Positions 4,583 to 53,478 of a stretch of DNA of 64,000 bases are shown here, piece after piece. Under the pieces are notes generated by a model. It was given only the letters and a program-made list of their open reading frames with translations. It was not told where the DNA came from and did not search any database. The DNA comes from an uncultured Gammaproteobacteria bacterium (GTDB lineage: Bacteria > Patescibacteriota > Patescibacteriia > Patescibacteriales > UBA12465), in contig CAZILW010000001.1 of assembly GCA_964540285.1 (NCBI GenBank), forward strand, positions 63,703-127,702. The letters run 5' to 3'. The position numbers and the translations under genes were made by a program. Every line of letters starts with the position of its first letter. Position 1 is the first letter of the stretch.

Positions 4583-4603
4583 ATAATTTTAATTAAATTA
4601 ATA

Positions 4604-4858: not shown

Positions 4859-5635
4859 CTAATTAATTTCAAAAAAATTCAAAGCAATAGTAGTGTTAAT
4901 ATTAATATTGCTAATTAAATAAGACATTAAGTTACCATTGACTTGAGGAACAACCTCTTCGGAGTTAACATACAAAGTTCCCACTACGCCAAAAGGATAA
5001 GTATTATACTGTATTTCAACAATAATATTTGACCCTTCTAAAACCTCAACACCTCCAAATTCATTAACATCAGTTATTGTACCAACCACAAAACCATCAT
5101 CTATAATTCTAATAAAATCAAAAGTGGTATACCCTGCGCCACTATAATTTATACCAAAACTAACAAAAACACTCCCCGCCCCACCAGTGTTTCCACTACT
5201 ACCTATTATTATTCCCCCTGGGGTCATTTGTTTAGCTCCTTGGGGTAAATCTGAGACTTGTTTGCCGGTACAGAAATCTATGGTATAGCTGGCACCATTG
5301 TTTTGAGGAGTGTAGATATAGGTATTAGATGCAGATTGACAGTTTCCATCAGCTGGAGTAGGAGAGGAAGGAATATTGTACATAAATACATTATTGCTAG
5401 ATTCAGACTCTATGATACCACTATTCCATTCTTCTTCTGTAGGATATCTTCCATTTTCATTGAAGAATAGTTCTAGGGCAGTTTGTACTTGTTTCATATC
5501 GGCCATTCTTTTACTATCTCTAGCATTTTGTCTGGCTTGTTGTAGGGCTACTACAGCAAGGGTTGCTAATATACCAATAATAGCTATTACTACTAGGAGT
5601 TCGATGAGGGTAAACCCTCGTTTTTGTTTGAACAT
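4859..5635 (-). CDS. Type IV pilin-like protein (prepilin N-terminal cleavage/methylation domain) with Gly/Ser/Thr-rich C-terminal domain
   Basis: N-terminus [20 protein letters not shown] is the class III signal and N-methylation motif. The first 70 aa are about 80% identical to the N-termini of the two FISUMP-pilin genes. Confidence 0.85.
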
Positions 5636-20239: not shown

Positions 20240-21973
20240 TTATTTATTTTTTCTATTTATATATTTGGTGTGTAATACTTTATGTGATAACTTACTGTTT
20301 TTTACCCAATTGACCGCCTCTAATGCATCTCGATTTTCATGAGCAGTTCTTATCTTCTCTTTTTTATCACTACTATACAATCCCTCCATTCTCTTTTGAA
20401 CTATTTCCATTGAGCTCGGTATAATTTGTCCTCCTCCACCAATACAACCTCCAGGACAAGCCATAACCTCTATATAATGATATTTTTTTAACTTTGATAA
20501 AACTTCTTTTATATTACCAATTCCGCTAACAACCGCCACATTAAGCTTGTTTCCGTTTAAATCAATAACCGCCTCTTTAACTCCTTTCAGCCCTCTAACC
20601 TCTTTAAATTCAATTCTAGAGTGGCAAATTTTGGCTTTTTTTGAGTCTTTACAGACAAAATGATTAGCAGTTCTAAGAGCTGACTCCATAACACCACCTG
20701 AAGCTCCATAAATCACCGCCGCACCACTACCATCATTAAATAAATCATTAGATTTTTCTGGTTTTAGATTTTTAAAATCAATACCATTTTTCTTAATTAA
20801 AAAAGCCAACTCTCTAACAGTAATAACTTCATCTACCGGATAAAGACCATTAATTTTAAGCTCTGATCTTCGAGATTCAAACTTCTTGGCTGTACAAGGC
20901 ATTATAGAAACAGTAATTATATCTTTGGGTTTAATATTTTTTTTATTCGCCCAATAAGTTTTTATAACTCCACCCAGATGAATTTGAGGCGATCTTGATG
21001 TTGTTAAGTGAGGTATTAAGTCTGGTCGATAAAATTCTAAATATTTTACCCAAGCTGGGCAACAAGAAGTTATCATTGGAAGCTTGGCCTTTTTGTCCCC
21101 TAATCTTTCCAATAACTCCTCGGCCTCGACCAGAGTTGTTATATCTGCCCCCAAGTTAACATCAATAACTTGATCAAAACCAATTTTTTTCAAAGCCGTA
21201 ACCATTTGACCAGCGGCATTATAACCATAAGGAAGGCCAAACATTTCTCCAATTGAAATTCGAGTAGATGGAGCAATCATTGCTATTAACTTTTTACCTT
21301 TCTTATTAGACAAAATATCTTCAACCTTGTCCCAATTATATTGCTCTTGAGCTGAGGCTACTGGACAATGCAAAGCACACTGCCCACAATAAATACAATC
21401 AATATTTTTATCTTTAACTGGAACTATTTCTTGCTTATAACCCTTACCCTCCTTTTTTAAATAATTTATTTTTTGAATATTAGAGCAAGCATCAATACAA
21501 TTTCGGCAGTCTATACATTGACTACCGTCAATTTCCACAGAATTAGAAAACTTGTAAGTTTTTCTCTGTCCTTTACGATCATTAAAGCTGGCAATATTTA
21601 AACCATAACGCCTAGCCAAAGAAAGCAAATCACAACTAAATCTAGAAGTGCAATTAACGCATTTTTCAATATGAGCTGAAAATATTAATTTTAAATTAGT
21701 GTCTCTCGATAATTTAACCTTAGGAGAGTTGGTAAAAACCTCCATACCATCGCAAGCCACAGTCGAACAAGAGGTCATTAAACGATTAAAACCCTTAACT
21801 TCAACTACGCAAACTCGACAATTGGCTTTAACATCTAGATCGGGATGATTACAAAGCGATGGAATAAAAATATTATTTCTACTGGCAACTTCTAATATTT
21901 TTTCGCCAACAAAACAGTCATAATTTTTACCATCAATTTTTATTTTTATTTTTTTATTTTTTTCTTTTAACAT
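20240..21973 (-). CDS. hydA: [FeFe]-hydrogenase catalytic subunit (HydA, NAD(P)-dependent multimeric type)
   Basis: N-terminal 2Fe-2S ferredoxin domain. Two 4Fe-4S motifs (CIDCRNCIDAC, CIYCGQCALHCP). H-cluster motifs L1 TSCCPAW, L2 MPCTAKK, L3 EVMACPGGCIGGGGQ. Confidence 0.9.
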   Translation of the reverse strand: MLKEKNKKIKIKIDGKNYDCFVGEKILEVASRNNIFIPSLCNHPDLDVKANCRVCVVEVKGFNRLMTSCSTVACDGMEVFTNSPKVKLSRDTNLKLIFSAHIEKCVNCTSRFSCDLLSLARRYGLNIASFNDRKGQRKTYKFSNSVEIDGSQCIDCRNCIDACSNIQKINYLKKEGKGYKQEIVPVKDKNIDCIYCGQCALHCPVASAQEQYNWDKVEDILSNKKGKKLIAMIAPSTRISIGEMFGLPYGYNAAGQMVTALKKIGFDQVIDVNLGADITTLVEAEELLERLGDKKAKLPMITSCCPAWVKYLEFYRPDLIPHLTTSRSPQIHLGGVIKTYWANKKNIKPKDIITVSIMPCTAKKFESRRSELKINGLYPVDEVITVRELAFLIKKNGIDFKNLKPEKSNDLFNDGSGAAVIYGASGGVMESALRTANHFVCKDSKKAKICHSRIEFKEVRGLKGVKEAVIDLNGNKLNVAVVSGIGNIKEVLSKLKKYHYIEVMACPGGCIGGGGQIIPSSMEIVQKRMEGLYSSDKKEKIRTAHENRDALEAVNWVKNSKLSHKVLHTKYINRKNK

Positions 21974-23012
21974 CTTTTTTTAAAACCTTTGAACTTTTTT
22001 GGGAAATAATTAAAGGTTCGTAAATATTTTTAAAATAACTTAAAACAGCTATCGGAACAGAAGTTCCCAATGCACAAAAAGAAGATAAAAATAAATTGTC
22101 GCATAAATCATTAAATCTTTTTTCTTTTCTTATTTCTGATCCAAGCTCTTTAAACATTTCATAAAGACGAAAAGTTCCCTCTCGACAAGGAGTACACTGA
22201 CCGCAAGAATTATCTCTGAAAAAACCAAGCCAATAATTTAATAATTTTTCTGGAAAATGTTTTTCCATTTTATAAATAGTAATTGAACCAGCGCCATCAA
22301 CTCTTCTCTTTAATTGTCTACTATTTAAGACTTCGCCAGAAGCGTCACCGCCAATTTGAACAAAAAAATCGTATTCAGGATAATTAGCTGTTTGTTTTAA
22401 AATCTCATCAATATTTAAACTGTCTGGCAAAAAATAAACCCCTTTATTTTTTTTATCAAAATTAATAGAATAAAATCTTTTATTTTGATATTTATTTTGA
22501 CTAACCAAATAAACATTATAAATAGTTTCGACATTATTTATTAAAGTTGGCTTACCGTAAAGACCGCTGCAAGTTGGAAAAGGTGGTCTAATACGAGGCT
22601 CAACATCCTTACACTCTATAATATTTAAAATTGTTGTTTCCTCTCCGGCAATATAACCAGAATTTATTGGTTTAAGGAAAAAAACCATTTTACCCTTCAA
22701 TCCAGCAGAATTGGCTAATTTGTTTAATTTATTTTTTGAATTATAAAGATTCTTGTTTAAATAAAAATAAATTTTTTTAGCTTTAATAAAATCAGATGCG
22801 ATTTTTATTCCTTTTATTAATTCTTCTGGATGATTATTTATTATATAAGCGTCTTTATGTATTCCTGGCTCCCCCTCTGCCCCATTTATTACTAAATATT
22901 TTTCTAAACTATTTTCATTTTTAACCGCCTGCCATTTTAAATGAACGGGAAAAGAAGCGCCACCACGACCAAGTAATCCAGCTTTTTTAATTTTATCTAA
23001 AATATTAGTCAT
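21954..23012 (-). CDS. NuoF-like NADH-binding flavoprotein subunit of hydrogenase (HndC/HydB-like, short form)
   Basis: GRGGASFPVHLKW, YLVINGAEGEPG and CGQCTPCREG, the NuoF 51-kDa motifs. Only 352 aa; the canonical C-terminal 4Fe-4S motifs are not obvious. Confidence 0.7.
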   Translation of the reverse strand: MTNILDKIKKAGLLGRGGASFPVHLKWQAVKNENSLEKYLVINGAEGEPGIHKDAYIINNHPEELIKGIKIASDFIKAKKIYFYLNKNLYNSKNKLNKLANSAGLKGKMVFFLKPINSGYIAGEETTILNIIECKDVEPRIRPPFPTCSGLYGKPTLINNVETIYNVYLVSQNKYQNKRFYSINFDKKNKGVYFLPDSLNIDEILKQTANYPEYDFFVQIGGDASGEVLNSRQLKRRVDGAGSITIYKMEKHFPEKLLNYWLGFFRDNSCGQCTPCREGTFRLYEMFKELGSEIRKEKRFNDLCDNLFLSSFCALGTSVPIAVLSYFKNIYEPLIISQKSSKVLKKDVKRKK

Positions 23013-23013
23013 A

Positions 23014-24027
23014 TTACCACTTTAGATATTTTATTAAATCTACTAAACGACAAGAATATCCCCATTCATTATCATACCAAGCAATAACTTTTAACAAATC
23101 ACCATCCATAACTTTAGTCAAAGAAAGGTCAACAATAGTACTGTGGTCATTTTTGACTATATCGCTTGAAACCAGTGGTTCAGTTGAAGCTTCAATAATA
23201 TTTTTAAATCTAGCTGTTTGTGAAGCTTTAACAAAAGCCTTGTTAACATCTTCGGCAGTAACCTTTTTCTTTAAAACAAAAACGGTGTCGCACAAAGAAC
23301 CAACCACTACCGGAACTCTAACTGCTAAACCATCAAAAGTTCCAGCCAAAGAAGGGATTGTTAGAGCAATAGCTTTGGCTGCCCCAGTTGTTGTTGGTAC
23401 AATATTTAAAGCAGCGCTACGGGCTCTTCTTAGATCTTTATGCGGACCATCAACTAAATTTTGATCAGCTGTATAAGCATGAATAGTTGTCATTAAGGCC
23501 TTTTTGATACCAAAATTTTTTCTAATAACTTCAGTTACTGGAGCTAAGCAGTTGGTTGTACAAGAAGCACAAGATAAAATATTATCATTTTTATTAATCT
23601 TTTCCTCGTTAACACCAATAACAATAGTTTTAACCTTATCCTCGCCCTTAGAAGGGGCCGAAAGAACGACTTTTTTAGCGCCAGCTTTGATATGCAAGCC
23701 CAAGCCTTCTTTATTAGTAAATCTTCCAGTGCACTCCAAAACAACATCAACTTTCATTTTAGCCCAAGGCAAAAGAGATGGGTCTTTCTCTGAAAAAACT
23801 GGAATTTTTTTGCCGGCAATGATTATATTTTTTTCGTCAGATGAAACTTTTTTATCATAAACTCCATAGGCTGAATCATATTTTAAAAGATGAGCTAAGG
23901 TTTTAGTATCGGTTAAATCATTTATGGCTACTATTTTATAGTTAGGATTTTTATCAATAATAATTTTACAAACAGCTCGGCCAATGCGACCAAAACCATT
24001 AATAGCAATGTTCAATTTTTTTGGCAT
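23014..24027 (-). CDS. gap: Glyceraldehyde-3-phosphate dehydrogenase, type I
   Basis: INGFGRIGR NAD-binding motif and active site SCASCTTNCLAP. Confidence 0.9.
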   Translation of the reverse strand: MPKKLNIAINGFGRIGRAVCKIIIDKNPNYKIVAINDLTDTKTLAHLLKYDSAYGVYDKKVSSDEKNIIIAGKKIPVFSEKDPSLLPWAKMKVDVVLECTGRFTNKEGLGLHIKAGAKKVVLSAPSKGEDKVKTIVIGVNEEKINKNDNILSCASCTTNCLAPVTEVIRKNFGIKKALMTTIHAYTADQNLVDGPHKDLRRARSAALNIVPTTTGAAKAIALTIPSLAGTFDGLAVRVPVVVGSLCDTVFVLKKKVTAEDVNKAFVKASQTARFKNIIEASTEPLVSSDIVKNDHSTIVDLSLTKVMDGDLLKVIAWYDNEWGYSCRLVDLIKYLKW

Positions 24028-41796: not shown

Positions 41797-42984
41797 TTAT
41801 TTGATAATTTTAGCTACAACACCAGCTCCAACTGTTCTACCACCTTCACGAATAGCAAATCTTTGCTTTTCTTCAAGGGCAATAGGGGCAATTAATTTAA
41901 CTTTTAGATTAACTGTATCACCAGGCATAACCATCTCAACTCCTGCTGGCAATTCAATTTCACCAGTTACATCAGTTGTTCTGATGTAGAATTGAGGTTT
42001 GTAACCTTTAAAAAATGGTTTATGTCTTCCACCTTCATCTTTACCTAAAATATAAACTTCAGCTTCAAATTCTGTATGCGGTGTAACTGTTCCTGGTTTT
42101 ACTAAAACTTGACCTCTTTCTACTTCATCTTTTTTAGTACCTCTTAAAAGTAAACCAGCGTTATCACCAGCCTCACCTCTGTCCAAAGATTTGTTAAACA
42201 TTTCTACTCCAGTAATGGTAGTTTTTTTTGTTTCCATTAAACCAACGATTTCAACCTCGTCACCAACATTAACAACACCTCTTTCAATTCTACCTGTACA
42301 AACAGTTCCTCTTCCTTCAATTGAGAAAATATCCTCAATCGGCATTAAGAATGGTTTGTCCAAATCTCTTTCTGGAGTTGGAATATAATCATCCAAAGCT
42401 TTAAGTAAGTCTGTTATTGGTTGCGCATCTGGACCTGTTGGATTCTCTAAAGCCTTTAAAGCACTTCCTCTGATAATTGGAGTAGCATCTCCAGGGAATT
42501 CGTATTTCTTTAATAAATCTCTAATTTCTTCTTCAACTAAATCAATTAACTCTTTATCCTCTACCATGTCACATTTATTTAAAAATACAACGATGTAAGG
42601 AACACCAACCTGACGAGCCAACAAGATGTGCTCTCTAGTTTGAGGCATAGGACCATCAGTAGCTGAAACCACTAAGATAGCACCATCCATTTGAGCGGCA
42701 CCAGTGATCATGTTTTTAACATAATCAGCGTGACCAGGACAATCAACGTGAGCATAGTGTCTACCTTCTGTTTCATACTCTTGATGAGAAGTAGCAATTG
42801 TGATACCTCTTTGCTTCTCTTCAGGAGCATTATCAATCTCATCAACTCCTCTTTGAGTTGCTTTCATACCCTGAGCATTAGCTACAGTTAAGATAGCTGC
42901 TGTCAAAGTTGTTTTCCCATGATCAACGTGACCAATTGTTCCAACGTTGACATGAGGCTTACTGCGTTCAAATTTGTCTGCCAT
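41797..42984 (-). CDS. tuf: Elongation factor Tu
   Basis: [30 protein letters not shown] start and GTPase motifs. The start lies internal to the 41797..43032 ORF. Confidence 0.95.
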
Positions 42985-43122
42985 TTTTTTGAAAACACGA
43001 CCTCCTTTTGGAGTTACTTGCCTCAAAGGCAACCAGCCGTTTTTATTAATTATTAATAAATTTATTTATAAACAAGCAAAAATAGCTAAAGAATTAACTA
43101 TTTCCAATTTGTTTTATTCAAT

Positions 43123-43392
43123 TTAGTTTTCTGCTTCTTCTTTTACTTGCGGTGGTATCTTCCAATTATTAGAACTTTTTACATTTCCACTAACAACACT
43201 TTCATCTTCCTTGATGTTATCAATATTTTTTTTCTCTGTCAAGTCCTTTTTTTTATCATTAGAAATCAAACCCTCATACTGATCTAAGCTCATCAAGACG
43301 AAAGAATCTTCTGGCTCGCTATTATCAAAAACAATAATACGATCACCTGTTTTTTTTGACAAATTTATAACTTGTTTTAATTGTTTGGACAT
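43123..43392 (-). CDS. Hypothetical protein (89 aa)
   Basis: ORF between the pilin-LamG genes and tuf; no recognisable motif. Confidence 0.4.
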   Translation of the reverse strand: MSKQLKQVINLSKKTGDRIIVFDNSEPEDSFVLMSLDQYEGLISNDKKKDLTEKKNIDNIKEDESVVSGNVKSSNNWKIPPQVKEEAEN

Positions 43393-43457
43393 AAAATAAT
43401 ATTTTAATTATAACTAAGTATTATAATGAAAAATTAAATTATGTCAACAGGTAAAAA

Positions 43458-44615
43458 TTAATAATTAATATAAATATTTTGATAATCATGATTATATAAT
43501 TGTAAAATTTCATCAGCGCTTAAAACTCGATTATAAATTCTCGTCCTACCAATCTCACCTAAAAAATTCCAAGGATTTCCACCTATAATACCATTGCCCC
43601 AACTACCTGAGCCAAAGGTCAAGTCATTTATATTATCAATTTTTGCATATTCATTTAAAATTTTAGTACTCCAATTTTGTCCATTTAAATAGAAGCTAAA
43701 TACTTGACTTTGCCCAGTTCCACTGTAGGTCATAACCGCCTGATACCAGTCATTCAAATCTATTGAGTATCGATCTGTTATTCTATGAATACCGTCACCC
43801 CTAATAACAGCATAAATATCTATAATATTTGTTGTCAAATTATTATATTGAATATTTATTCCAAAACCAGTTCCACCTTTACCTTTAGAAACAACCCCAG
43901 CATTTCTACTATAAACATCATCCAAACAAATTTCATTCATTTTCATCCAGGTAACTATAGTAAAGTCATCGTATGTGCCAAAATCAAATTCATTTCCCTC
44001 TTGATAATAAGCTCTAGCCAATATATTCCCACTCGGAGAATTTCCGGAATATTTTGGTTTTATAGAATAAGGATTAAAACCCCAAATAGTATTATTTCCA
44101 ACAAAAACATCATTATTTCTAGTATAGTCAAAGGCTGTTTGTCCCTCACCTTCGTCAAACTTCCAAAAGCCAACTAAACCATCTACAATAACTTTTTCAT
44201 GACAATCATCATGCACAACATCATTAGAGTCAAGACATTTTAAGCCAGAACTATAATTATCAATACTTCCCTCCAAAAAAAATTCTAAACTATAATAATC
44301 ATTTTTTAAATCTTTATAATAAATAATGTTACTGGGAATATTATTATAAAAAACACTACCATTAGATCCAATAATCTGACCACCACCCTCAATAACCTCT
44401 GTGTCCGGATACCCTCCCTCTATCATCTTGTAGGCCTCGAGTGCCATTTGAAACTCTTTTATTTCCGATAAAACTTTTTTATCCCTAGCTGACCTTTTAA
44501 TAACATTAACTGAGGCAATAGCTACGGTTGTTACTAAAGAAATAATTAAAATAACAATTATAAGCTCTATAAAAGTGAAGGCTCTTCTTTTGTTGTTTTT
44601 AAAAAGAAAACTCAT
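43458..44615 (-). CDS. Prepilin-N-terminus protein fused to LamG/ConA-like lectin domain
   Basis: N-terminus KRRAFTFIELIIVILIISLV. C-terminal GEIGRTRIYNRVLSADEILQLYN is the Laminin_G_3 (PF13385)-type ending. Confidence 0.8.
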   Translation of the reverse strand: MSFLFKNNKRRAFTFIELIIVILIISLVTTVAIASVNVIKRSARDKKVLSEIKEFQMALEAYKMIEGGYPDTEVIEGGGQIIGSNGSVFYNNIPSNIIYYKDLKNDYYSLEFFLEGSIDNYSSGLKCLDSNDVVHDDCHEKVIVDGLVGFWKFDEGEGQTAFDYTRNNDVFVGNNTIWGFNPYSIKPKYSGNSPSGNILARAYYQEGNEFDFGTYDDFTIVTWMKMNEICLDDVYSRNAGVVSKGKGGTGFGINIQYNNLTTNIIDIYAVIRGDGIHRITDRYSIDLNDWYQAVMTYSGTGQSQVFSFYLNGQNWSTKILNEYAKIDNINDLTFGSGSWGNGIIGGNPWNFLGEIGRTRIYNRVLSADEILQLYNHDYQNIYINY

Positions 44616-44640
44616 ATTCTATATTAATTAATAAATAAAA

Positions 44641-45840
44641 TTAATTTTGATAGTATTCTTTAATATTGTTATACAAACCAAAAACCTCTTCCGCTGATAA
44701 AGGCTTATTAAAATACATTGCATCGTTTATACGACCTTGAAAATAGGATTCGGTAGTGCTACCACCCTTGCCTAGAAACATAGGCTTGTCAGTTCCTATA
44801 TTCATCACGGTATTTTCGATTTCAGATATCAACTGACCATTCTTGTAAAATCTACGAAAATAACCATCATCAGTTAAAACAATAAAATGCCAACCATCTG
44901 GGTATTTACTTAAAACATAATCTTCTATGGACCACCATTGCCTGTCAACAGAATCAATTGAATTTTGACTAGCAATTTTACCAGAATAAAGGGCTAGTCC
45001 CCAACGACCCAAACTCAAACCAGTACCCCACAACAATCCTCCTGAACCCTGTGGTTTTGTACCATCCAACCAAAGAGCTAAAGAATATTCTGTTTGTTTT
45101 GGCATTGTTGAAATATTAAAAAAATCATCAACTCCATCGAAATAAACAAAGCCGTCAATTAGTTTAGGCTGCAAGTCAATATTAGATTGTTCAGCATTTT
45201 TTCTTTGATAAGAAAGGTCAAAGATTGTTTGAACCATTTCACTGTTATCAGGATTAAGCTTAACCCCACCATCAGAAGACAAAAAGAGAATTAAATTATT
45301 ATAAATGTTGCTATTTTGAAAATAACTAAACAAATTATAAGTCTTACCTCTATTTAAGATGACTCCATTCCCACTACTAACAAAATCTAAATAATCCAAA
45401 CAGGCGCCTCGACAACAAGAAAAGTCAAAAATACCAGCAGAACTAAAACATTTATTTCCAGGACTAAAATTTTCATTAAAATTTTCAACCTCTAAAGCAA
45501 TATCATAACTTAAATCCGAAGAATTAAAAAAATAATCAACACCCTCAGGAATGTTTTCTAAAAAAATTAAACCAGAAGAACTACCAACAAGAGCTTGTCC
45601 CGAAATCAATTGTTCAGGATATCTGCCTTCAACATTTTTATAACTCTCTAAGGCTATTTGAACTTGGCTTATATCGTTAATTTTTTTTAAATCTTTACCT
45701 CTACTTCTAGACCTAGAAATGTTAACCATCACTAAAGTAGAAATTAAAGCAATGATAAAAACGACCACTAAAATTTCAATAAAGGTAAAAGCCTTTTTGT
45801 TTTTAAATAGATAAATATTCATATCGTTAATATAAAACAA
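44641..45840 (-). CDS. Prepilin-N-terminus protein fused to LamG/ConA-like lectin domain (paralogue)
   Basis: N-terminus KKAFTFIEILVVVFIIALIS; C-terminus GRINDAMYFNKPLSAEEVFGLYNN. Confidence 0.8.
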   Translation of the reverse strand: MFYINDMNIYLFKNKKAFTFIEILVVVFIIALISTLVMVNISRSRSRGKDLKKINDISQVQIALESYKNVEGRYPEQLISGQALVGSSSGLIFLENIPEGVDYFFNSSDLSYDIALEVENFNENFSPGNKCFSSAGIFDFSCCRGACLDYLDFVSSGNGVILNRGKTYNLFSYFQNSNIYNNLILFLSSDGGVKLNPDNSEMVQTIFDLSYQRKNAEQSNIDLQPKLIDGFVYFDGVDDFFNISTMPKQTEYSLALWLDGTKPQGSGGLLWGTGLSLGRWGLALYSGKIASQNSIDSVDRQWWSIEDYVLSKYPDGWHFIVLTDDGYFRRFYKNGQLISEIENTVMNIGTDKPMFLGKGGSTTESYFQGRINDAMYFNKPLSAEEVFGLYNNIKEYYQN

Positions 45841-45859
45841 TTATAACAAAAAAATAATT

Positions 45860-45910
45860 TAATTAAAACAAAAAACGGAGCTCTGTTATTTGCTCCGTTT
45901 TTTATTTTCA
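45860..45910 (-). terminator. Rho-independent terminator after fusA
   Basis: acggagc-tctgttattt-gctccgt hairpin (45875-45898) with U-tract on the minus strand (a T-tract on the plus strand too). Confidence 0.65.
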
Positions 45911-45921
45911 ATTTTTGTAAA

Positions 45922-48006
45922 TTATTTACCAGCCTTTTCCTTGATTTGCTCTAAAATATTTCTTGGAACTTCATTATAATGAGAAAATTCCATTGAATAA
46001 TTAGCCCTACCTTGACTCATTGATCTTAGAGATGTTGCATAACCAAACATTTCTGCTAGAGGAACTTTAGCTAAAACAACTTTAGCATTTCCTCTGTCAG
46101 TCATTTCTTCTATTTGACCTCTCTTGGCATTTAAATCTCCGATTATATTCCCCATGTATTCTTCTGGGGTAGTAACCTCGACCTTCATAACTGGTTCAAG
46201 TAAAACTGGGCTAGCCTTTTGACAAGCATCTTTGAAGGCAAAAATAGCAGCCATTTTAAAAGCGATTTCAGAAGAGTCTACCTCGTGATAAGAACCATCA
46301 TAAACAGTAACTTTAACATCAACCATTGGATAACCAGCTAAAATACCACTCTCCATAGCTTCTTTAACACCCTTTTCAATAGCTGGGATATATTCCCTTG
46401 GAATAGCACCGCCCTTTACCTCATCAACAAATTCATAAGTTTTTCCACCTTCATTAACTTGCGGTTCTAATCTTAAATAACAATGTCCGTATTGACCACG
46501 ACCACCAGATTGTTTAGCATACTTATGCTCAGCCTCAGCTTTTTGCTTAATAGTTTCCCTGTAAGAAACTTGAGGATTTCCAACATTAGCCTCAACTCCA
46601 AACTCTCTTCTCATGCGATCAACGATGATATCCAAGTGAAGCTCTCCCATACCAGAAATCAAAACTTGTCCGCTTTCTTCATCACTTTCAACTCTAAAAG
46701 TTGGGTCTTCTTCAGCTAGTCTATTTAAAGCAATACCCATTTTTTCTTGATCAGCCTTAGTTTTTGGCTCAACAGCAATCTTAATGACTGGCTCTGGGAA
46801 AACAATTGATTCAAGTAATAAAGATTTTTTCTCATCACATAAAGTATTTCCAGTTGTAGTGTCTTTTAGTCCAATAACAGCAGCGATATCTCCTGCTTTG
46901 ATTTCTTTAATTTCTTCTCTGTGATTAGCATGCATACGAACTAAACGACCAATTCTTTCTTTATTGCCAGTAGAAGAATTAACAATATAAGAACCAGAAC
47001 TCAAAACTCCACTGTAAACCCTAACAAAACAAAGCTTACCAACAAAAGGGTCAGTGGCAATTTTAAAAGCCAAACCAACAAAAGGCTCTTTTTCATCAGG
47101 CTTAACAATTGTTTTTTTAGTTTCATCATTAACATCAGTAGCTTCTATCTCTGGAACATCAAGAGGTGAGGGTAAATAATCACAAACAGCATCAAGAGCT
47201 TTTTGAACACCAATATTTTGTAAAGCTGTTCCACATAAAACAGGATAGATTCCATTAGATATAACCCCCCTTCTTAAAGCTGATTTCAATTCTTCAACAG
47301 TAATTTGCTCACCACTTAAATATTTTTCAGTTAAAGTATCGTCAAATTCAACAACTCTTTCAACCAATTCTCCATGATACTTTTCAACCTTATCAATCAT
47401 ATCAGCTGGGATTTCAGTTTCAATTATATTCTCGCCAAAATTTCCTTCGAACTTATAAGCCTTTTTTTCTAAAACATCAATAACTCCAGAAAAAGTACTT
47501 TCAGAACCAATTGGCAATTGATAAGCAACAGCTTTTGGATTTAATCTTTTTTTAATAGAGTCCAAGCTCATATAAAAATCAGCGCCAGTTTTATCCATCT
47601 TATTAACAAAACAAAGTCTTGGAACTTTATACTTATCAGCTTGACGCCAAACAGTTTCCGATTGAGGCTCTACACCTTGAGAACCATCAAAAACAGCAAT
47701 AGCACCATCTAAAACACGAAGTGATCTTTCAACTTCTACAGTAAAATCAACGTGTCCAGGAGTATCAATTATGTTTATCTTATTATCCTTCCAAAAACAA
47801 GTTGTGGCAGCTGAAGTAATAGTAATACCTCTTTCTTTTTCTTGTTCCATCCAATCCATATCAGCGGCTCCATCATGAGTTTCTCCGATTTTATGTTTTT
47901 TACCAGTATAAAAAAGAACTCTCTCGCTAAAAGTTGTTTTTCCGGCATCAATATGAGCCATGATACCAATGTTTCTAAATTTATCCAGCGTATAATCTTG
48001 CGACAT
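45922..48006 (-). CDS. fusA: Elongation factor G
   Basis: [17 protein letters not shown] and full five-domain EF-G; 694 aa. Confidence 0.95.
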
Positions 48007-48093
48007 ATGTTATTTAAAGAGTTTTAAGAGTTTTAGTACTTTCAAGACTCTTAGGATACTTATATTTAATTATTATATTATATATTTAATTCT

Positions 48094-48314
48094 ATATTTT
48101 GAGTGAAATTTGAGGAAAAGACGAGAAGCGAAGTGAGTCGTATTTTAATACGATGAACGAGCCTCGCAGTCTTTGACAAAAAATTTCACCAAAACTTTTT
48201 CTCCTAAAACTTTATATTTTGAGTGAAATTTGAGGAAAAGACGAGAAGCGAAGTGAGTCGTATTTTAATACGATGAACGAGCCTCGCAGTCTTTGACAAA
48301 AAATTTCACCAAAA
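48094..48314. repeat. Two tandem copies of an ~101-bp hairpin-forming element (18-bp spacer) between rpsG and fusA
   Basis: Copy 1 48094-48194 and copy 2 48213-48314 are identical. Each has terminal inverted repeats gtgaaattt/aaatttcac and an internal tcgtat-ttta-atacga hairpin. Confidence 0.85.
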
Positions 48315-48326
48315 TTTAAAGTTTTA

Positions 48327-48794
48327 CTATCTGGAGAAATGAGCAAATGCCTTATTAGCCTCCGCCATCTTATGAACAGTTTCTCTCTTTCTAACAGCCG
48401 CACCCTCTCCGTTTGATGCATCTAAAATTTCAGCGGCTAGTTTTTCAGCCATTGATTTTCCTTTTCTGTCTTTAGCGGCTGAAATAATCCAATTACAACC
48501 AAGATAAAACCTTCTCTCCCCCCTTACTTGAAAAGGAACTTGATAGTTGGCACCACCAACTCTTTTACCTCTAACTTCAAGCAATGGAGACACTTTTTTT
48601 AAAGCTTTATTAAAAATATGTCTTGGATCGTGCTTGGTTTCTTGACGAATTAAATCAAAAGCATCATAAGTAATCTTTTGAGCTACTGATCTTTTACCAT
48701 CAACCATAACGTAATTTATAAATTTGGCAATATTTTTATCACCATATTTTAAATCATTTTCTATTTTTCTTTTTGGAGCTTGTTTACCTCTCAT
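48327..48794 (-). CDS. rpsG: 30S ribosomal protein S7
   Basis: S7 fold sequence. Confidence 0.95.
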   Translation of the reverse strand: MRGKQAPKRKIENDLKYGDKNIAKFINYVMVDGKRSVAQKITYDAFDLIRQETKHDPRHIFNKALKKVSPLLEVRGKRVGGANYQVPFQVRGERRFYLGCNWIISAAKDRKGKSMAEKLAAEILDASNGEGAAVRKRETVHKMAEANKAFAHFSR

Positions 48795-48858
48795 AATTTT
48801 AAAATTACCAGCTATAGCAATTTTTATTAATTTATATCAATTTTATGTTAATTAAATT

Positions 48859-49278
48859 TTAAGCCTTTGGTTTTTTAGCACCATAACAACTTCTTCCCTG
48901 TCTTCTAGCTTCAACACCTTGAGCATCATAAACTCCACGAACAACTTTATATCTAACACCTGGTAAATCTTTTGTTTTTCCACCCTTAATAAGAACGATT
49001 GAGTGTTCTTGTAAGTTATGTCCCATTCCAGGAATATAGGCAGTCACCTCCATACCATTTGATAAACGAACACGAGCAATTTTACGTAAAGCTGAGTTCG
49101 GCTTCTTAGGGGTCATGGTAGTAACCTTAAGACAAACACCCTGTTTAAAAGGAGAGCCACTTTTAGTAACTTTTTTCTTACGATGTAAAGAATCTAAGCT
49201 GGTACGCAATGCTAAGTTCTTTTTTCTCTTACTGGAAGGTTTTCTTCCTTTTCTAACTAACTGATTGATAGTTGGCAT
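48859..49278 (-). CDS. rpsL: 30S ribosomal protein S12 (with about 14-aa insertion near the N-terminus)
   Basis: [12 protein letters not shown] ... [10 protein letters not shown] ... GHNLQEHS ... DLPGVRY. Confidence 0.95.
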
Positions 49279-49410: not shown

Positions 49411-51612
49411 TTATTCCTTAATACATCTAATATAACGACCATAAATAGAACTAATAGGCACAGTACTTGTCGTCAAAATTATTGATCCGCCAGTGTTGTA
49501 TATATAATACAAACCTGTCCCAAGATCGTCTATGGTTCTCGTCCAAAGCCAAAAACCACTTCCAAAATAAGGCCACTGTGTTGAATATTTATGACCACCA
49601 GGAAGCAAAGAAAAGCCAAGATCATCGGTGCCATAAACAGTATCAGATGCCCAATATGGATGCTCTGAAGTTACACATTCACCTCCCAAAGGAGAATTAA
49701 CTTGGCGACACGATCTTAAATTGTAAACATTATATGCACCAATACTGTTGACCAAAGAAATAAAATCATCTCTGGTTGGCACTATCCAGCCATCAGGACA
49801 AACCCCCCTAGGATCAATTATGGTATAAGAAGAATAAACATAACCATAAAGATTTCCATAAGTAGAAAGAAAGTCATACAAAGGATAATTCGCTCCACTC
49901 CAACTTCCAGTTACCCGAGGAATACTGTCACCATTTTTAAACTTATCAGTTTTAAGATTTTCTTTAAACCAGCATTGATCGCCGATAGCAACCGTTGGAT
50001 AATTATAACCATTATAAGAAACAGAACTTAAGCCCGAACAAGGATCTGTGGTTGTAAAAGAAAGAACATTGCCATAACCTACTCCAACTTCATTGACAGC
50101 ATAAGCTCTGATATAATAAGTTTTTCCAGCTTGAAGACCATAAAAAACATCAGAAACAAAAGAGGAGGAACTTAAAGTTGAATGTAAAAACTTTGAATTA
50201 CCATCACCGATTAAGGGATTATCATTTTCACTCCAGACAACACCACCAGAATGAACAGGAGATCCGCCATCATTACTTATTGTTCCCCCAGAAAAAGCTC
50301 TATTTGCTGAAACATTATTTACAACACCAGTAATAACGCTAGGGATGGTTTTAGGGCTAGTGTCTGTTTTTTTAATACATCTAATATAGCGACCATAAAT
50401 AGAGTCAATAGGAACAGTACTCGCCGTCGAAATTGTTGGTCCGCTTGTATTATATATATAATACAAGCTAGACCCAGTACTATTAGCAGTTGAAGTCCAA
50501 AGCCAAAAACCACTTCCAAAATAAGGCCACTGTGTTGAATATTTATGACCACCAGGAAGCAAAGAAAAGCCAAGATCATCGGTGCCATAAACAGTATCAG
50601 ATGCCCAATATGGATGCTCTGAAGTTGCACATTCACCTCCCAAAGGAGAATTAACTTGACGACACGATCTTAAATTGTAAACATTATACGTACCAATACT
50701 GTTGACTAAAGAAATAAAATCATCTCTGGTTGGCACTATCCAGCCATCGGGACAAACCCCTCTAGGATCGGTTATAGTATGAGATGAATAAACATAACCG
50801 TAAAGATTTCCATAAGTAGAAAAAAAATCATAAGCTGGATAATAAGAAGAATTACTATGATAAGAAATCCAAGAAGGTATAGTTGATCCCCAGCTTCCAG
50901 TTACCCGAGGAATACTGTCTCCATTTTTAAATTTATCAGTTTTAAGATTTTCTTTAAACCAGCATTGAGCTCCGATGCCTACTGTTTGGTAGGTGTGGCC
51001 GTTATAGGTGATATTTTGACCACATTCAAAAACATCAAGAACACAAGAACTGTTTTGACAAATATAACCAGACTGACAATCAGGATAACAAACATTGAGA
51101 TTTGGATTTTCATTATTATCTCCTCCTCCGGTGTCTCCGCCTCCAGTGTCTCCGCCTAGGCAATCATAATTCATTATTCCTCCAGGAGTAGCACATTTTA
51201 AACCTTCAGATAGGTTAGAAACATCATTGCCTAGACAAAATGATAAAGTGTAAGTAGAGTTATCTTCGCTTACTTGATAGTAGAAGTTATTTTGACTGGC
51301 ATCACATACTCCATCAGCCGGATAAGGAGCAGAAGGAATATTATACATCAGTACTTGACCACTTGAGGTAATAAGAGAACCACTTAACCATTCTTCTTCA
51401 GTAGGATATCTTCCCTGTTCATTAAAGAATAATTCTAGGGCTGTTTGGGCTTGTTTAATATCAGCTAGTCTTTTACTATCACGAGCTCTAGAGCGAGCTT
51501 GTTGTAAAGCTACAACAGCTAGAGTGGCCAGTATTCCAATAATAGCAATTACTACTAGAAGCTCAACGAGGGTAAAAGCTTTTTTGTTTTTTTGAAAATT
51601 GTTTTTAAACAT
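49411..51612 (-). CDS. Prepilin-N-terminus protein fused to two FISUMP domains (paralogue of 16505..19015)
   Basis: The first ~150 aa are nearly identical to 16505..19015. Two FISUMP units (CWFKENL...GNLYGYVYS...CPDGWIVPT...RCIK) are about 90% identical to each other. Confidence 0.8.
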   Translation of the reverse strand: MFKNNFQKNKKAFTLVELLVVIAIIGILATLAVVALQQARSRARDSKRLADIKQAQTALELFFNEQGRYPTEEEWLSGSLITSSGQVLMYNIPSAPYPADGVCDASQNNFYYQVSEDNSTYTLSFCLGNDVSNLSEGLKCATPGGIMNYDCLGGDTGGGDTGGGDNNENPNLNVCYPDCQSGYICQNSSCVLDVFECGQNITYNGHTYQTVGIGAQCWFKENLKTDKFKNGDSIPRVTGSWGSTIPSWISYHSNSSYYPAYDFFSTYGNLYGYVYSSHTITDPRGVCPDGWIVPTRDDFISLVNSIGTYNVYNLRSCRQVNSPLGGECATSEHPYWASDTVYGTDDLGFSLLPGGHKYSTQWPYFGSGFWLWTSTANSTGSSLYYIYNTSGPTISTASTVPIDSIYGRYIRCIKKTDTSPKTIPSVITGVVNNVSANRAFSGGTISNDGGSPVHSGGVVWSENDNPLIGDGNSKFLHSTLSSSSFVSDVFYGLQAGKTYYIRAYAVNEVGVGYGNVLSFTTTDPCSGLSSVSYNGYNYPTVAIGDQCWFKENLKTDKFKNGDSIPRVTGSWSGANYPLYDFLSTYGNLYGYVYSSYTIIDPRGVCPDGWIVPTRDDFISLVNSIGAYNVYNLRSCRQVNSPLGGECVTSEHPYWASDTVYGTDDLGFSLLPGGHKYSTQWPYFGSGFWLWTRTIDDLGTGLYYIYNTGGSIILTTSTVPISSIYGRYIRCIKE

Positions 51613-51621
51613 TGATAAAAA

Positions 51622-53478
51622 TTATTCTAAAACTGCTTTAATTCTTCTAACACCAGAACTAGAACTCTCTTCTTTTTGTATTTTAAATACACCTAAATTC
51701 TCCAGGCTTTCAACATGCGGACCACCACAAATTTCTTTGGAAAAATTACCAACAGAATATACTTTTACCTTCTCTCCATATTTGGACTCAAAAACACCAG
51801 TCGCCCCCATTTGCTTAGCTTCATCTAAAGTCATCTCACTACAATCAACTGCTAGTCCCTTTTGAATATTTTCATTTACTAAATCTTCAACTTGTTTTTT
51901 TTGTTCATCAGTCATTTTTTCTGGATGAGAAAAATCAAAACGAAGTCTTTCAGCAGTAATATTGCTTCCTCTTTGAGCGACATGATCACCCAAAACCCTC
52001 CTAAGAGCTTCTAGTAGTAAATGAGCTGCGGTATGAAGCTTGGTTGTCTCCTCGCTTTGATCAGCCAACCCCCCCTTGAATTTACCAGCGCTAGCCGTTT
52101 TAGATAATTCCTGATGTTTGTTTAAAGCTTGATTATATTCATCCAAAAAATTATCTGATTTAGAAATATTTTTTTCTTCTATAATCTCTAGTGTCATCTC
52201 GAGTGGATAGCCATGACTTTGAAATAAATTAAAAGCAATTTCACCATTAATCTTTTCCCCTTTTTCAACCAAGCTATTTAAAACTCTTTCCCCTTTTTCT
52301 ATGGTTTTGTTAAATTTCTCTTCTTCTTCATTTAATGATTTGAAAATAAATTCTCTATTTTTATCTAATTCACTATAAGAATCTTTATAGAATTCAACTA
52401 TAACTTGGCTAAGCTCAGCAATAAGATTTTTTTGTTCTATTTTTAATTGTTTCAAATAACGCACCGCCCTTCTGATAAGACGTCTAATAATATAACCTTG
52501 GTCGGTATTGGATGGGCTAAGCCCCTTGTCATCTCCCAATAAAAAAGTAGCACCTTTTATATGATCAGCTATAACTTCAAAAGCTTTTTTATTATCCTCA
52601 TATTTAAGTCCAGAAATATTTTCGAGTCTATCTACAATAGAACCAAGAGAGTCAATTTTAAAAATATTGCCTAAATTATTTTTTACCATTACAATTCGCT
52701 CCAGTCCCCCACCAAAATCAACATTTTTGTTTTCTAATTCTTTCCAACCATCGACTGTTTTTTGGTATTGCATAAAAACAGAATTGCCAATTTCAATAAA
52801 TCTTCCACAATCACAATTCAAATGACAATGCTCACCAAATTTTGGATCATGTTCTTTGCCGGTATCATAAAAAGTTTCACTATCTGGACCACCTAATTCT
52901 CCAATGGCATCGCCTCTCTGCCACCAATTTTTGTCTCGATAAGCAAAGATTCTATCTTTGGAAAAATCGAGCTCTATACCAGGCCCTTCATCTCCCTTGG
53001 TAATTGTTTCTGGACCTTCACTGGCTTCAATTCCGTATTTTTTGTAAATATTTTTTAAAATTGCAATAGACTCTTCATCTTTGACTATGCTTTTGCCGTC
53101 ACCAACATAAACAGTCTGATAAATTTTATTAATATCAAAGCCTAGCTCTTCTATTAAAAATTCAAACCACCAATTGAGTTGCTCTTCTTTAAAATAATTA
53201 CCCAAGCTCCAATTACCAAGCATTTCAAAAAAGGTATTATGACGACCATCACCAACGTCGTCAATATCTTCGGAACGGAAACATTTCTGACTATTTACTA
53301 AACGAAGGCCAGCTGGATGTTTTTCACCTAAAAGATATGGCACCAAAGGAAACATACCAGAATTGGTAAATAAAAGACTAGAATCATTTTCAGGAATGAG
53401 CGATGAAGACGATATCAGGGCGTGTTGTTTTTTTTGAAAAAATTCAAAATATTTCTGTCTAATTTCACTGGTTTTCAT
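51622..53478 (-). CDS. alaS: Alanyl-tRNA synthetase, compact form (618 aa, lacks C-Ala domain)
   Basis: Catalytic-core motifs FTNSGM and WGGP-like region; editing-domain HTAAHLLLEALRRVLGDHVAQRGS. Confidence 0.85.
   Translation of the reverse strand: MKTSEIRQKYFEFFQKKQHALISSSSLIPENDSSLLFTNSGMFPLVPYLLGEKHPAGLRLVNSQKCFRSEDIDDVGDGRHNTFFEMLGNWSLGNYFKEEQLNWWFEFLIEELGFDINKIYQTVYVGDGKSIVKDEESIAILKNIYKKYGIEASEGPETITKGDEGPGIELDFSKDRIFAYRDKNWWQRGDAIGELGGPDSETFYDTGKEHDPKFGEHCHLNCDCGRFIEIGNSVFMQYQKTVDGWKELENKNVDFGGGLERIVMVKNNLGNIFKIDSLGSIVDRLENISGLKYEDNKKAFEVIADHIKGATFLLGDDKGLSPSNTDQGYIIRRLIRRAVRYLKQLKIEQKNLIAELSQVIVEFYKDSYSELDKNREFIFKSLNEEEEKFNKTIEKGERVLNSLVEKGEKINGEIAFNLFQSHGYPLEMTLEIIEEKNISKSDNFLDEYNQALNKHQELSKTASAGKFKGGLADQSEETTKLHTAAHLLLEALRRVLGDHVAQRGSNITAERLRFDFSHPEKMTDEQKKQVEDLVNENIQKGLAVDCSEMTLDEAKQMGATGVFESKYGEKVKVYSVGNFSKEICGGPHVESLENLGVFKIQKEESSSSGVRRIKAVLE

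What the first reader, a model, noticed from the sequence alone, without database searches (positions are those of the whole stretch)
43123..45840. Two pilin-LamG lectin-like genes plus a small ORF inserted inside the str operon between fusA and tuf
rpsL-rpsG-fusA-tuf is one of the most conserved gene strings in bacteria. Here fusA is followed by its own terminator (45860-45910), then two paralogous prepilin-N-terminus proteins with C-terminal LamG/ConA-like jellyroll domains and an 89-aa ORF, before tuf.

Each pilin protein ends in the RIYNRxLSAxEI motif. Accessory adhesin-like genes embedded in a core translation operon are unusual. The placement could tie their expression to growth rate.
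Basis: partly seen in the sequence, partly recalled or inferred. Interest (0 to 1): 0.6.

Follow-up and report, generated by a model that had tools for sequence, protein, structure and literature searches.

The report
Swappable pilin adhesin genes beside tuf
Two real pilus-subunit genes with sugar-binding-type heads lie between the fusA and tuf translation-factor genes of an uncultured ultrasmall (Patescibacteria) bacterium, but they are a known protein type sitting in a gap between two transcription units, so the find is modest.

Summary
On the minus strand, fusA is followed by a strong terminator hairpin, two prepilin genes with LamG modules, an 89-aa ORF, and then tuf. Both pilins pass Pfam thresholds for PF07963 and PF13385. 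Six independent assemblies show the same order, so it is not a chimera.

- The 89-aa ORF is not part of the insertion. It belongs to a large Patescibacteria family of hypothetical proteins (more than 1,400 hits) that normally sits between fusA and tuf.
- The pilin genes occur only in the closest relatives. There are one to three per locus, and their C-terminal modules vary: LamG, FISUMP, Listeria-Bacteroides repeats, or none recognised.
- The pilin genes lie between a structurally conserved fusA terminator and conserved promoters. This looks like an operon boundary, which argues against growth-rate coupling by read-through.
- Pilin+PF13385 is a published modular-pilin architecture. The nearest characterised analogues are Streptococcus sanguinis PilC and Saccharibacteria PilX1.

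The most likely function is pilus-displayed glycan-binding adhesins that evolve quickly (dN/dS 0.11–0.26, against about 0.03 for the flanking genes).

In passing, I found a conserved three-helix RNA leader in front of tuf. It has covariation support and no Rfam match.

The parts
49411..51612 (-). Context: modular prepilin with two FISUMP (Fib_succ_major) modules, immediately upstream of rpsL. With the island downstream of fusA, modular pilin genes bracket rpsL-rpsG-fusA.
   Evidence: PF07963 34.2 bits and PF09603 175.7 bits. The same arrangement is in sister lineages L087-L091.
45922..49278 (-). rpsL (48859-49278), rpsG (48327-48794) and fusA (45922-48006): the upstream transcription unit.
   Evidence: ORFs; EF-G domains; homologues in 80 genomes.
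45865..45908 (-). Intrinsic terminator after fusA: a G+C-rich stem with a 10-nt loop, followed by a U-run.
   Evidence: dG -21.4, z -7.2; inverted repeat I11. The structure is conserved with different stem sequences in L087/L091, L001 and L002.
45840..45848 (-). Predicted extended -10 promoter (TGTTATAAT) for the pilin genes.
   Evidence: Read from the sequence. TGCTATAAT, TGATATAAT or TGCTAATAT sit at the same place in L087, L091, L002 and L001. This is a consensus match, not a mapped transcription start.
44641..45822 (-). Modular prepilin 1 (393 aa from ATG 45822): class III signal peptide, pilin module with Cys-Cys region, and LamG_3 module.
   Evidence: Pfam; NCBIfam pilin N-terminal models. 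The ortholog in L091 is 78% identical with dN/dS 0.22.
43458..44615 (-). Modular prepilin 2 (385 aa): class III signal peptide, pilin module and LamG_3 module.
   Evidence: Pfam. PDB profile hits: GspG and PilE1 on residues 12-77, LamG-type domains on 162-354, best E 2.8e-26. AF2 model plus Foldseek gives ConA-like lectins and S. sanguinis PilC.
43420..43447 (-). Consensus sigma-70-type promoter (TTGACA-16-TATAAT, 12 of 12) in front of the small ORF.
   Evidence: Conserved in L087, L091, L001 and L002. Similar promoters lie before the small ORF in relatives without pilins. The 66-nt spacer before it has no hairpin (z -0.1).
43123..43392 (-). 89-aa ORF ('orfX'): a short member of a Patescibacteria-wide family that resides between fusA and tuf. 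Its N-terminal alpha-beta-beta-alpha domain is weakly Phd/YefM-like.
   Evidence: 1,431 hits at E<=1e-3, all unnamed or named 'hypothetical' apart from one stray label. Synteny. PF02604 is sub-threshold in 23 of 47 members. AF2 pLDDT is about 82 for residues 1-45. dN/dS is 0.09-0.12.
43078..43106 (-). A+T-rich hairpin plus U-run after the small ORF: a possible weak terminator or attenuator.
   Evidence: dG -12.5, z -2.9. Conserved in L001 and L002, with a compensating change in L002.
42996..43041 (-). Conserved structured 5' leader of tuf, a three-way junction: P1 ACGGC/GUCGU, P2 UUGCC/GGCAA, junction GUAA, P3 CUCC/GGAG.
   Evidence: Covariation: 89.6% of cells paired against 35-53% when partners are slid, 9 pairs changed on both sides, 0 of 500 shuffles. 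RNAalifold finds the same helices. The covariance model gives one hit per locus, always upstream of tuf. No Rfam match.
41797..42987 (-). tuf (EF-Tu), followed by rpsJ and the S10 cluster. The mechanical TTG start at 43032 would overlap the leader RNA and is probably wrong.
   Evidence: homologue alignments begin at MADKFER/MAEK.

Best explanation
The two genes encode modular type IV pilin-like proteins. Each has a class III (prepilin) signal peptide, a small pilin module, and a LamG/ConA-like beta-jelly-roll module attached by a linker.

Inferred function, by analogy: after cleavage by a prepilin peptidase they are built into type IV pili, probably at the tip because the module is bulky. There the lectin-like module would bind glycans on the surface of a host or partner cell, serving the attachment lifestyle typical of Patescibacteria.

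Shown here: they are part of a genus-level pilin island at the junction between fusA and a conserved small ORF. At this site pilin genes are duplicated, lost, and have their C-terminal modules exchanged.

Predicted from sequence signals only: the junction is a boundary between two transcription units, rpsL-rpsG-fusA-terminator and promoter-orfX-leader-tuf-S10. The island appears to have its own extended -10 promoter, so it is an insulated accessory unit and not part of the str operon. The site probably tolerates insertions simply because it is an inter-operon spacer in a genome where almost all genes point the same way.
For: Domain assignment:
- Pfam matches are above threshold.
- PDB profile hits cover both halves: GspG 1.2e-8, PilE1 4.9e-6, and LamG-type domains down to 2.8e-26.
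- The AF2 model shows a long N-terminal helix followed by beta-strands, with mostly moderate confidence (block pLDDT 63-86). Foldseek returns ConA-like lectin domains and the S. sanguinis minor pilin PilC (7oa7/7oa8, E about 4e-7).

Real, selected genes:
- Orthologous pilin pairs have dN/dS 0.11-0.26 against 0.03-0.04 for fusA, tuf and rpsJ.
- Their dS (0.40-0.84) is similar to that of the flanks (0.33-0.69), so they have diverged in place.

Island dynamics:
- One to three pilins lie at this site in every locus whose orfX is at least 58% identical to the window's, where enough upstream sequence is held, and in no more distant locus.
- The modules differ between lineages: LamG, FISUMP, He_PIG+FISUMP, Flg_new+Gly_rich_2, Flg_new_2, or none recognised.
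- N-terminal pilin modules stay 52-72% identical where the C-terminal parts are unrelated.

Insulation: terminators and promoters are conserved.

Precedents:
- Modular pilins with PF13385 and FISUMP modules are among the 15 commonest architectures, and several of the representatives shown are from candidate phyla (PMC8179133).
- The lectin module of PilC belongs to a glycan-binding, tip-located complex (PMC9934059).
- TM7x PilX1 is a jelly-roll, lectin-like minor pilin (PMC11623550).
Against: - No pilus assembly genes (PilB, PilC, PilD, PilM-O, PilT) are among the window ORFs I annotated. Processing and assembly are therefore assumed, not shown.
- The AF2 model of the LamG module is low confidence (overall pLDDT 59, several stretches below 50), so structural matches are supportive only.
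- Glycan binding is inferred from the fold family. PF13385 also covers non-lectin and glucanase-like domains.
- Promoters and terminators are consensus or thermodynamic predictions with no transcript data. Terminator read-through cannot be excluded.
- With five pilin-like genes in 64 kb, not all may be pilus subunits.
Confidence: 0.68

Rival explanations
1. One reading: the pilin genes are embedded in the str operon and transcribed with it, so adhesin output follows ribosome and translation-factor expression (growth rate).
For: All genes are co-directional with short spacers. There is no terminator between pilin 2 and the orfX promoter. Intrinsic terminators are rarely fully efficient (general knowledge).
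Against: A strong terminator after fusA (z -7.2) is kept, with compensating stem changes, in all five pilin-bearing lineages examined. An extended -10 promoter follows it in each. Relatives without pilins already have terminator and promoter signals at this junction.
Confidence: 0.15
2. The proteins use the prepilin-type N-terminus only as a secretion or anchoring device. They would act as cell-surface or pseudopilus-borne lectins, not as subunits of extended type IV pili.
For: Five such genes lie in 64 kb, scattered among housekeeping genes and away from any pilus machinery genes. The best NCBIfam N-terminal match is the T2SS pseudopilin GspG, below its cut-off. [quoted passage not shown]
Against: The full class III motif with E+5 and a complete pilin module is conserved. 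Type IV pili are reported as nearly universal in Patescibacteria (PMC11623550). Characterised modular pilins do assemble into pili (PMC8179133, PMC9934059).
Confidence: 0.2
3. The island is a recently acquired mobile or horizontally transferred cassette, or an assembly artefact.
For: Its presence is patchy across relatives and the gene content varies.
Against: Six independent assemblies give the same order. There are no flanking direct or inverted repeats beyond A+T-rich chance matches, and no integrase or transposase. GC content and skew are continuous. Pilin orthologs have a dS like the flanking genes, which indicates vertical descent in place.
Confidence: 0.03

Closest known systems
Streptococcus sanguinis PilC (modular minor type IV pilin; PDB 7OA7/7OA8; PMC9934059)
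   Same: A class III signal peptide and short pilin module, with a ConA-like lectin module grafted on the C-terminus. Foldseek matches at E about 4e-7. It is the functional model: tip-located glycan binding.
   Different: No detectable sequence relationship: PilC is absent from PDB profile hits at E<=0.1, and Foldseek identity is 11-13%. PilC has an extra Ig-like module and is encoded inside a dedicated 22-kb pil locus, not next to translation genes.
Nanosynbacter lyticus TM7x PilX1 (Saccharibacteria minor pilin with a beta-jelly-roll, L-type-lectin-like domain; PMC11623550)
   Same: A Patescibacteria pilin-like protein with a C-terminal jelly-roll, lectin-like module, implicated in host binding.
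   Different: PilX1 lies in a pilus locus with machinery genes, and its module had no match in NCBI CD-Search. I made no sequence or structure comparison here. PilX1 was not predicted to have a PilD signal peptide, whereas these proteins have a clear one.
Modular pilin architecture IPR012902 + PF13385 (catalogue of Raynaud et al. 2021, PMC8179133)
   Same: Exactly this domain architecture. It is listed among the 15 commonest modular-pilin architectures, and several of the representative proteins shown come from candidate phyla (Magasanikbacteria, Falkowbacteria, Wolfebacteria, Gracilibacteria, Saccharibacteria). The FISUMP module (IPR011871) seen in neighbouring pilins is listed too.
   Different: That catalogue says nothing about genomic position. 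The conserved island at the fusA/orfX junction, with module exchange, is not described there.
Classical str operon rpsL-rpsG-fusA-tufA (E. coli and many bacteria; own knowledge)
   Same: The same gene order for the four core genes, continuing into the S10 cluster.
   Different: Here fusA ends in a conserved terminator, and tuf is preceded by a small conserved ORF, its own promoter and a structured leader. In 25 non-Patescibacteria loci the fusA-tuf spacer is only about 41-417 nt.
Phd/YefM antitoxins (PF02604), for the 89-aa ORF only
   Same: Weak but recurrent similarity in the N-terminal roughly 45 residues: 23 of 47 family members at E<=0.01. YefM/RelJ chains appear among the non-significant Foldseek hits, rmsd 2.4-3.0 over 44-52 columns.
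   Different: The score is below the Pfam gathering cut-off (23.7 against 29.8). There is no toxin gene downstream (tuf follows instead). The middle and C-terminal motifs are different and conserved (LTExELxDKINRDIAxWK, W-IP, EEDRQYLEE). No PDB sequence hit.

Membership tests
Type IV pilin / class III signal peptide proteins | Short basic leader ending in Gly or Ala at -1, Phe at +1, Glu at +5, then about 20 hydrophobic residues; PF07963/TIGR02532 match. | tested here: met
   KKA|FTFIEILVVVFIIALISTLVMV and RRA|FTFIELIIVILIISLVTTVAIA. PF07963 scores 23.4 and 26.6 bits against a cut-off of 21.2. TIGR02532 scores 18.8 and 19.8 against 16.3.
Type IV pilin / class III signal peptide proteins | Pilin fold: a long N-terminal alpha-helix packed on a beta-sheet ('lollipop'). 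| tested here: met
   AF2 model of pilin 2: helix 15-66 and strands across 80-129, block pLDDT 63-86. PDB profile hits to GspG, PilE1, PilA and geopilin cover residues 7-103, best hit 12-77. The MSA was shallow (12 sequences), so confidence is moderate.
Type IV pilin / class III signal peptide proteins | Cleavage and N-methylation by a prepilin peptidase, and assembly by a PilB/PilC-type machine. | not testable with these tools
   No machinery genes are among the window ORFs annotated. The rest of the genome is not available. Type IV pili are reported as near-universal in the phylum (PMC11623550).
Modular pilins (sensu Raynaud et al. 2021) | An N-terminal pilin module fused by a linker to an extra domain whose signature is not specific to pilus biology. 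| tested here: met
   The pilin module spans about 1-140 and ends in a Cys-Cys stretch. PF13385 covers 246-386 in pilin 1 and 215-370 in pilin 2. Definition taken from PMC8179133.
LamG / concanavalin A-like lectin-glucanase superfamily (PF13385 Laminin_G_3) | Profile match above the gathering score, and a beta-jelly-roll fold. | tested here: met
   42.3 and 57.6 bits against a cut-off of 27.6. PDB profile hit 4qvs at 2.8e-26, plus arabinanase, toxin Hc, pentraxin and CBM40 domains. Foldseek E is 2e-7 or weaker to the same kinds of domain, but the model is low confidence in this region.
LamG / concanavalin A-like lectin-glucanase superfamily (PF13385 Laminin_G_3) | Actual carbohydrate binding. 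| not testable with these tools
   Inferred from the fold family and from PilC and PilX1 precedents only.
str operon (a single rpsL-rpsG-fusA-tuf transcription unit) | The inserted genes are co-transcribed with fusA and tuf, with no internal terminator. | tested here: not met
   By sequence prediction only. A strong conserved terminator follows fusA. Conserved promoters lie before pilin 1 and before the small ORF. Transcript data are needed for proof.
Phd/YefM type II antitoxin (for the 89-aa ORF) | PF02604 above the gathering score, with an adjacent cognate toxin gene. | tested here: not met
   23.7 bits against a cut-off of 29.8. The downstream gene is tuf in essentially all loci. Foldseek and PDB searches gave nothing significant.
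Any Rfam 15 family (for the tuf leader) | Covariance-model match at E<=1. | tested here: not met
   No match over the leader in the window or in eight further loci. ARAGORN finds no tRNA-like gene in the window.

The most novel reading that the evidence does not exclude
Two readings remain open.

1. The fusA-tuf interval of this Patescibacteria clade may hold an undescribed regulatory module for EF-Tu and S10-cluster expression. It would consist of a small Phd/YefM-like protein (orfX, more than 1,400 homologues, almost always at this position) and a three-helix structured RNA leader in front of tuf. The leader has covariation support, occurs once per locus, and is absent from Rfam.

2. In one genus, the spacer just upstream of this module may have become a dedicated cassette site where modular pilin adhesins are duplicated and their receptor-binding modules exchanged.

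I think it is more likely than not that the leader is a real structured cis-regulatory RNA. That orfX is its partner, or a regulator of the unit, is speculation.
Probability: 0.3. Interest if true: 0.6.

Novelty: new member of a known kind. Interest (0 to 1): 0.35.

Why it matters
The pilin-LamG proteins add little that is new. Modular pilins with lectin modules are catalogued and have been studied by experiment.

The locus does offer a natural series for studying how episymbiotic bacteria vary their attachment repertoire. The chromosomal site is fixed and bracketed by slowly evolving genes. Closely related lineages (EF-G 88-96% identical) carry one to three pilins there, with different receptor-binding modules.

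The work also corrects an assumption. In this clade fusA-tuf is not one tight operon. It is two units separated by a conserved small protein and a structured tuf leader. If the leader and orfX are regulatory, they would be a handle on how these reduced-genome bacteria control EF-Tu, one of their most abundant proteins.

Tried and rejected
- **Assembly chimera:** rejected. Six independent assemblies give the same order, and composition is continuous.
- **Mobile element or HGT cassette:** rejected. No meaningful flanking repeats and no recombinase. Pilin dS equals the dS of the flanks.
- **The small ORF as part of the insertion:** rejected by synteny.
- **The small ORF as a bona fide Phd/YefM antitoxin:** not supported. 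It is below the Pfam cut-off, has no toxin partner, and PDB profile and Foldseek searches are not significant.
- **The tuf leader as a known RNA family or tRNA-like gene:** no Rfam or ARAGORN match.
- **The plus-strand 130-aa ORF at 43785-44177, inside pilin 2:** treated as a chance antisense ORF. Not analysed further.
- **The mechanical TTG starts:** TTG 45840 for pilin 1 overlaps the predicted -10 element, and TTG 43032 for tuf overlaps the leader RNA. I preferred the ATG starts at 45822 and 42987, based on homologue N-termini.
- **Literature searches:** I looked for a pilin island at the str locus, a Patescibacteria tuf leader, and fusA-tuf synteny in CPR. Nothing relevant turned up, but the library is incomplete.
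- **First structure job:** I repeated it with permitted ones.
Full report
**What is in the sequence**

Almost every gene in the window is on the minus strand. Around the finding the order is:
- alaS (51622-53478)
- a 733-aa prepilin with two FISUMP modules (49411-51612)
- rpsL, rpsG and fusA (45922-48006)
- a hairpin with a U-run
- prepilin-LamG 1 (44641-45822)
- prepilin-LamG 2 (43458-44615)
- an 89-aa ORF (43123-43392)
- tuf (41797-42987), rpsJ and the S10 cluster

Both pilin-like proteins pass the Pfam gathering scores for PF07963 and PF13385. They also match pilin N-terminal models in NCBIfam. They are distant paralogues, 26% identical with E 2e-19.

A profile of pilin 2 and its relatives hits solved structures in two halves. 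Residues 12-77 match GspG, PilE1 and PilA. Residues 162-354 match LamG-type domains, with a best E of 2.8e-26.

An AF2 model of pilin 2 has low overall confidence (pLDDT 59), though its pilin module is better predicted. Foldseek on this model returns ConA-like lectin domains and the Streptococcus sanguinis modular minor pilin PilC.

The fusA terminator is real, with dG -21.4 and z -7.2. Pilin 1 has the looser YFNKPLSAEEV. This stretch aligns to the C-terminal end of the PF13385 profile.

**Artefact check**

The identical pilin 2 lies in the same gene order on contigs from six separate assemblies. GC content and skew do not break at the junctions. Nothing resembling mobile-element ends or a recombinase is present.

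**Synteny**

I used EF-G to fetch loci from one genome per GTDB species, then listed the ORFs between fusA and tuf.
- A homologue of the 89-aa ORF lies between fusA and tuf in relatives whose EF-G is 67-89% identical to the window's (L001, L002, L003, L008, L010, L011, L014, L024, L060). In L004 the contig ends before tuf.
- Pilin genes lie between fusA and that ORF only in the two closest species. L001 has one and L002 has two.

Homologues of pilin 2 in sister lineages (EF-G 95-96% and EF-Tu 97-98% identical) sit at the same place. Those loci carry three LamG pilins, and a FISUMP pilin precedes rpsL as it does here.

A profile of the small ORF finds 1,431 proteins at E<=1e-3. None has a Pfam domain, and those that carry a name are called hypothetical, apart from one stray label. 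Three homologues chosen arbitrarily all lie between fusA and tuf.

A metagenome scan with the same profile gave 80 loci.
- fusA is upstream in 74 and tuf downstream in 72. Most of the misses are at contig ends.
- Pilins occupy the fusA/orfX junction in 11 loci. These include every locus with enough upstream sequence whose orfX is at least 58% identical to the window's.
- A few distant loci carry unrelated insertions at the same junction.

So the small ORF is an ancestral resident, and the pilin island is a genus-level addition.

**How unusual is it?**

In 25 non-Patescibacteria loci where tuf follows fusA, the spacer is about 41-417 nt. In about 19 Patescibacteria loci it is 102-3,564 nt, and 13 of them exceed 450 nt. 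Six Patescibacteria loci with rpsL-rpsG-fusA have no tuf within at least 3.5 kb downstream.

The window holds five prepilin-motif genes in 64 kb. All lie among housekeeping genes such as thrS, the CCA-adding enzyme and alaS. None of the ORFs I annotated encodes pilus machinery.

**Island dynamics**

Across relatives the pilins at this site carry different modules:
- LamG_3
- FISUMP
- He_PIG + FISUMP
- Flg_new + Gly_rich_2
- Flg_new_2
- no recognised module

The N-terminal pilin modules remain 52-72% identical even where the C-terminal parts are unrelated. For example, window pilin 1 matches L091 pilin 1 at 78% over its full length, but matches L087 pilin 1 at 52% over the first 150 residues only.

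Orthologous pilin pairs have dN/dS of 0.11-0.26, against 0.03-0.04 for fusA, tuf and rpsJ. Their dS is similar to that of the flanks. These are functional, fast-evolving genes that have diverged in place.

**Transcription signals (predictions)**

All five pilin-bearing lineages examined keep the same three signals:
- a terminator hairpin after fusA, with three different stem sequences, each far more stable than shuffled controls
- an extended -10 element (TGnTATAAT or a close variant) before the first pilin
- a near-consensus promoter before the small ORF (TTGACA-16-TATAAT in the window, 12 of 12)

No hairpin separates pilin 2 from that last promoter (z -0.1). Many relatives without pilins already have a hairpin and a TTGACA-17-TAGAAT promoter between fusA and the small ORF.

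The junction is therefore an operon boundary, and the island sits in the spacer. This argues against growth-rate coupling by read-through, but only transcript data can settle it.

**Comparison with known systems**

- Modular pilins (a pilin module plus a grafted domain) are widespread. PF13385 and the FISUMP domain are among the 15 commonest added modules, and several of the representative proteins shown come from candidate phyla (PMC8179133).
- S. sanguinis PilC carries a ConA-like lectin module and forms a glycan-binding complex modelled at the pilus tip (PMC9934059).
- Saccharibacteria PilX1 has a jelly-roll, lectin-like module, and type IV pili mediate host binding there (PMC11623550).

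The proteins here share that architecture and probably that mode of action. They are not sequence relatives of PilC.

**Side findings**

The small-ORF family has three parts.
- An N-terminal alpha-beta-beta-alpha domain, pLDDT about 82.
- Recurrent sub-threshold similarity to Phd/YefM: 23 of 47 members at E<=0.01, plus non-significant YefM and RelJ Foldseek hits.
- Conserved downstream motifs. The window's 89-aa version has lost part of these.

Between the small ORF and tuf lies an A+T-rich hairpin with a U-run. After it comes a conserved leader RNA at 42996-43041:
- P1 ACGGC/G(C/U)CGU encloses two hairpins of variable length and sequence, joined by RNAA.
- On 34 distinct sequences, 89.6% of cells pair, against 35-53% when partners are slid. 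Nine pairs show changes on both sides, and 0 of 500 shuffles reach the observed score.
- RNAalifold predicts the same helices independently.
- A covariance model finds one significant hit per locus (two weak hits elsewhere, E 0.035 and 0.28), always between orfX and tuf. This includes more than 20 loci outside the seed. Apart from L014 and a weak hit in L020 (E 0.035), it finds nothing in Patescibacteria loci without an orfX homologue or in other bacteria (887 kb searched).
- Rfam 15 has no match.

**Verdict**

They are new members of a known protein kind, placed in an inter-operon spacer of a clade where fusA-tuf is already interrupted. Interest is moderate to low for the pilins themselves. 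The conserved, module-swapping island and the orfX-plus-leader unit in front of tuf are the parts worth a further look.

Noticed in passing
window 42996-43041 (-); also L001-L003, L008, L014, L024, L060, L081-L177 upstream of tuf: A conserved three-helix structured RNA leader directly upstream of tuf (ACGGCUGG - hairpin - RNAA - hairpin - GGCCGU). It has covariation support, occurs once per locus, has no Rfam 15 match, and co-occurs with the small-ORF family.
   Followed up: yes
window 43123-43392 (-); L098-L177: The 89-aa ORF belongs to a family of more than 1,400 unnamed or 'hypothetical' proteins that almost always lie between fusA and tuf in Patescibacteria. The N-terminus is weakly Phd/YefM-like and there is no toxin partner. 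The window's copy is a shortened version: the NRDIAxWK part of the central motif has diverged and the C-terminal EEDRQYLEE tail is absent.
   Followed up: partly
window 42988-43032 (-): The mechanical TTG start, and the 409-411-aa tuf gene calls on public contigs, extend tuf into the leader RNA. Homologue N-termini indicate the ATG at 42987.
   Followed up: partly
window 49411-51612, 16505-19015 and 4859-5635 (all -): Three more prepilin-type genes lie among housekeeping genes. Two are large FISUMP-module paralogues, 52% identical to each other, and one of these also has an fn3-like stretch. The third is a 258-aa pilin sharing about 65% identity with them over the N-terminal 140 residues.
   Followed up: partly
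L087 3776-3863; L091 3625-3712: In sister lineages the predicted -10 element (TGCTATAAT) ends only 6 nt before the first pilin's ATG. This suggests a leaderless mRNA.
   Followed up: no
L096 about 4510-4590: One distant relative appears to carry a tRNA-like sequence between the small ORF and the tuf leader. This recalls the tRNA genes that precede tufB in E. coli. I judged it by eye from the sequence and did not run ARAGORN on it.
   Followed up: no
L005, L006, L009, L016, L025, L027: Several Patescibacteria, including Magasanikbacteria and Moraniibacteriota MAGs, have rpsL-rpsG-fusA with no tuf within 3.5-10 kb downstream. The str string is broken in parts of the radiation.
   Followed up: no
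window 20240-24027 (-): An [FeFe]-hydrogenase large subunit and a NuoF-like flavoprotein lie next to GAPDH.
   Followed up: no
window 636-2159 (-) and 6952-9018 (-): A GH3-family (acyl-acid amido synthetase-like) protein, and a 688-aa subtilase fused to FG-GAP repeats that may be another surface protein.
   Followed up: no
L001, L004, L006, L008, L013, L060 record titles: The closest MAGs in GTDB are titled 'uncultured Gammaproteobacteria bacterium'. Their gene content and EF-G relatives place them in Patescibacteria, so the record labels are probably wrong.
   Followed up: no
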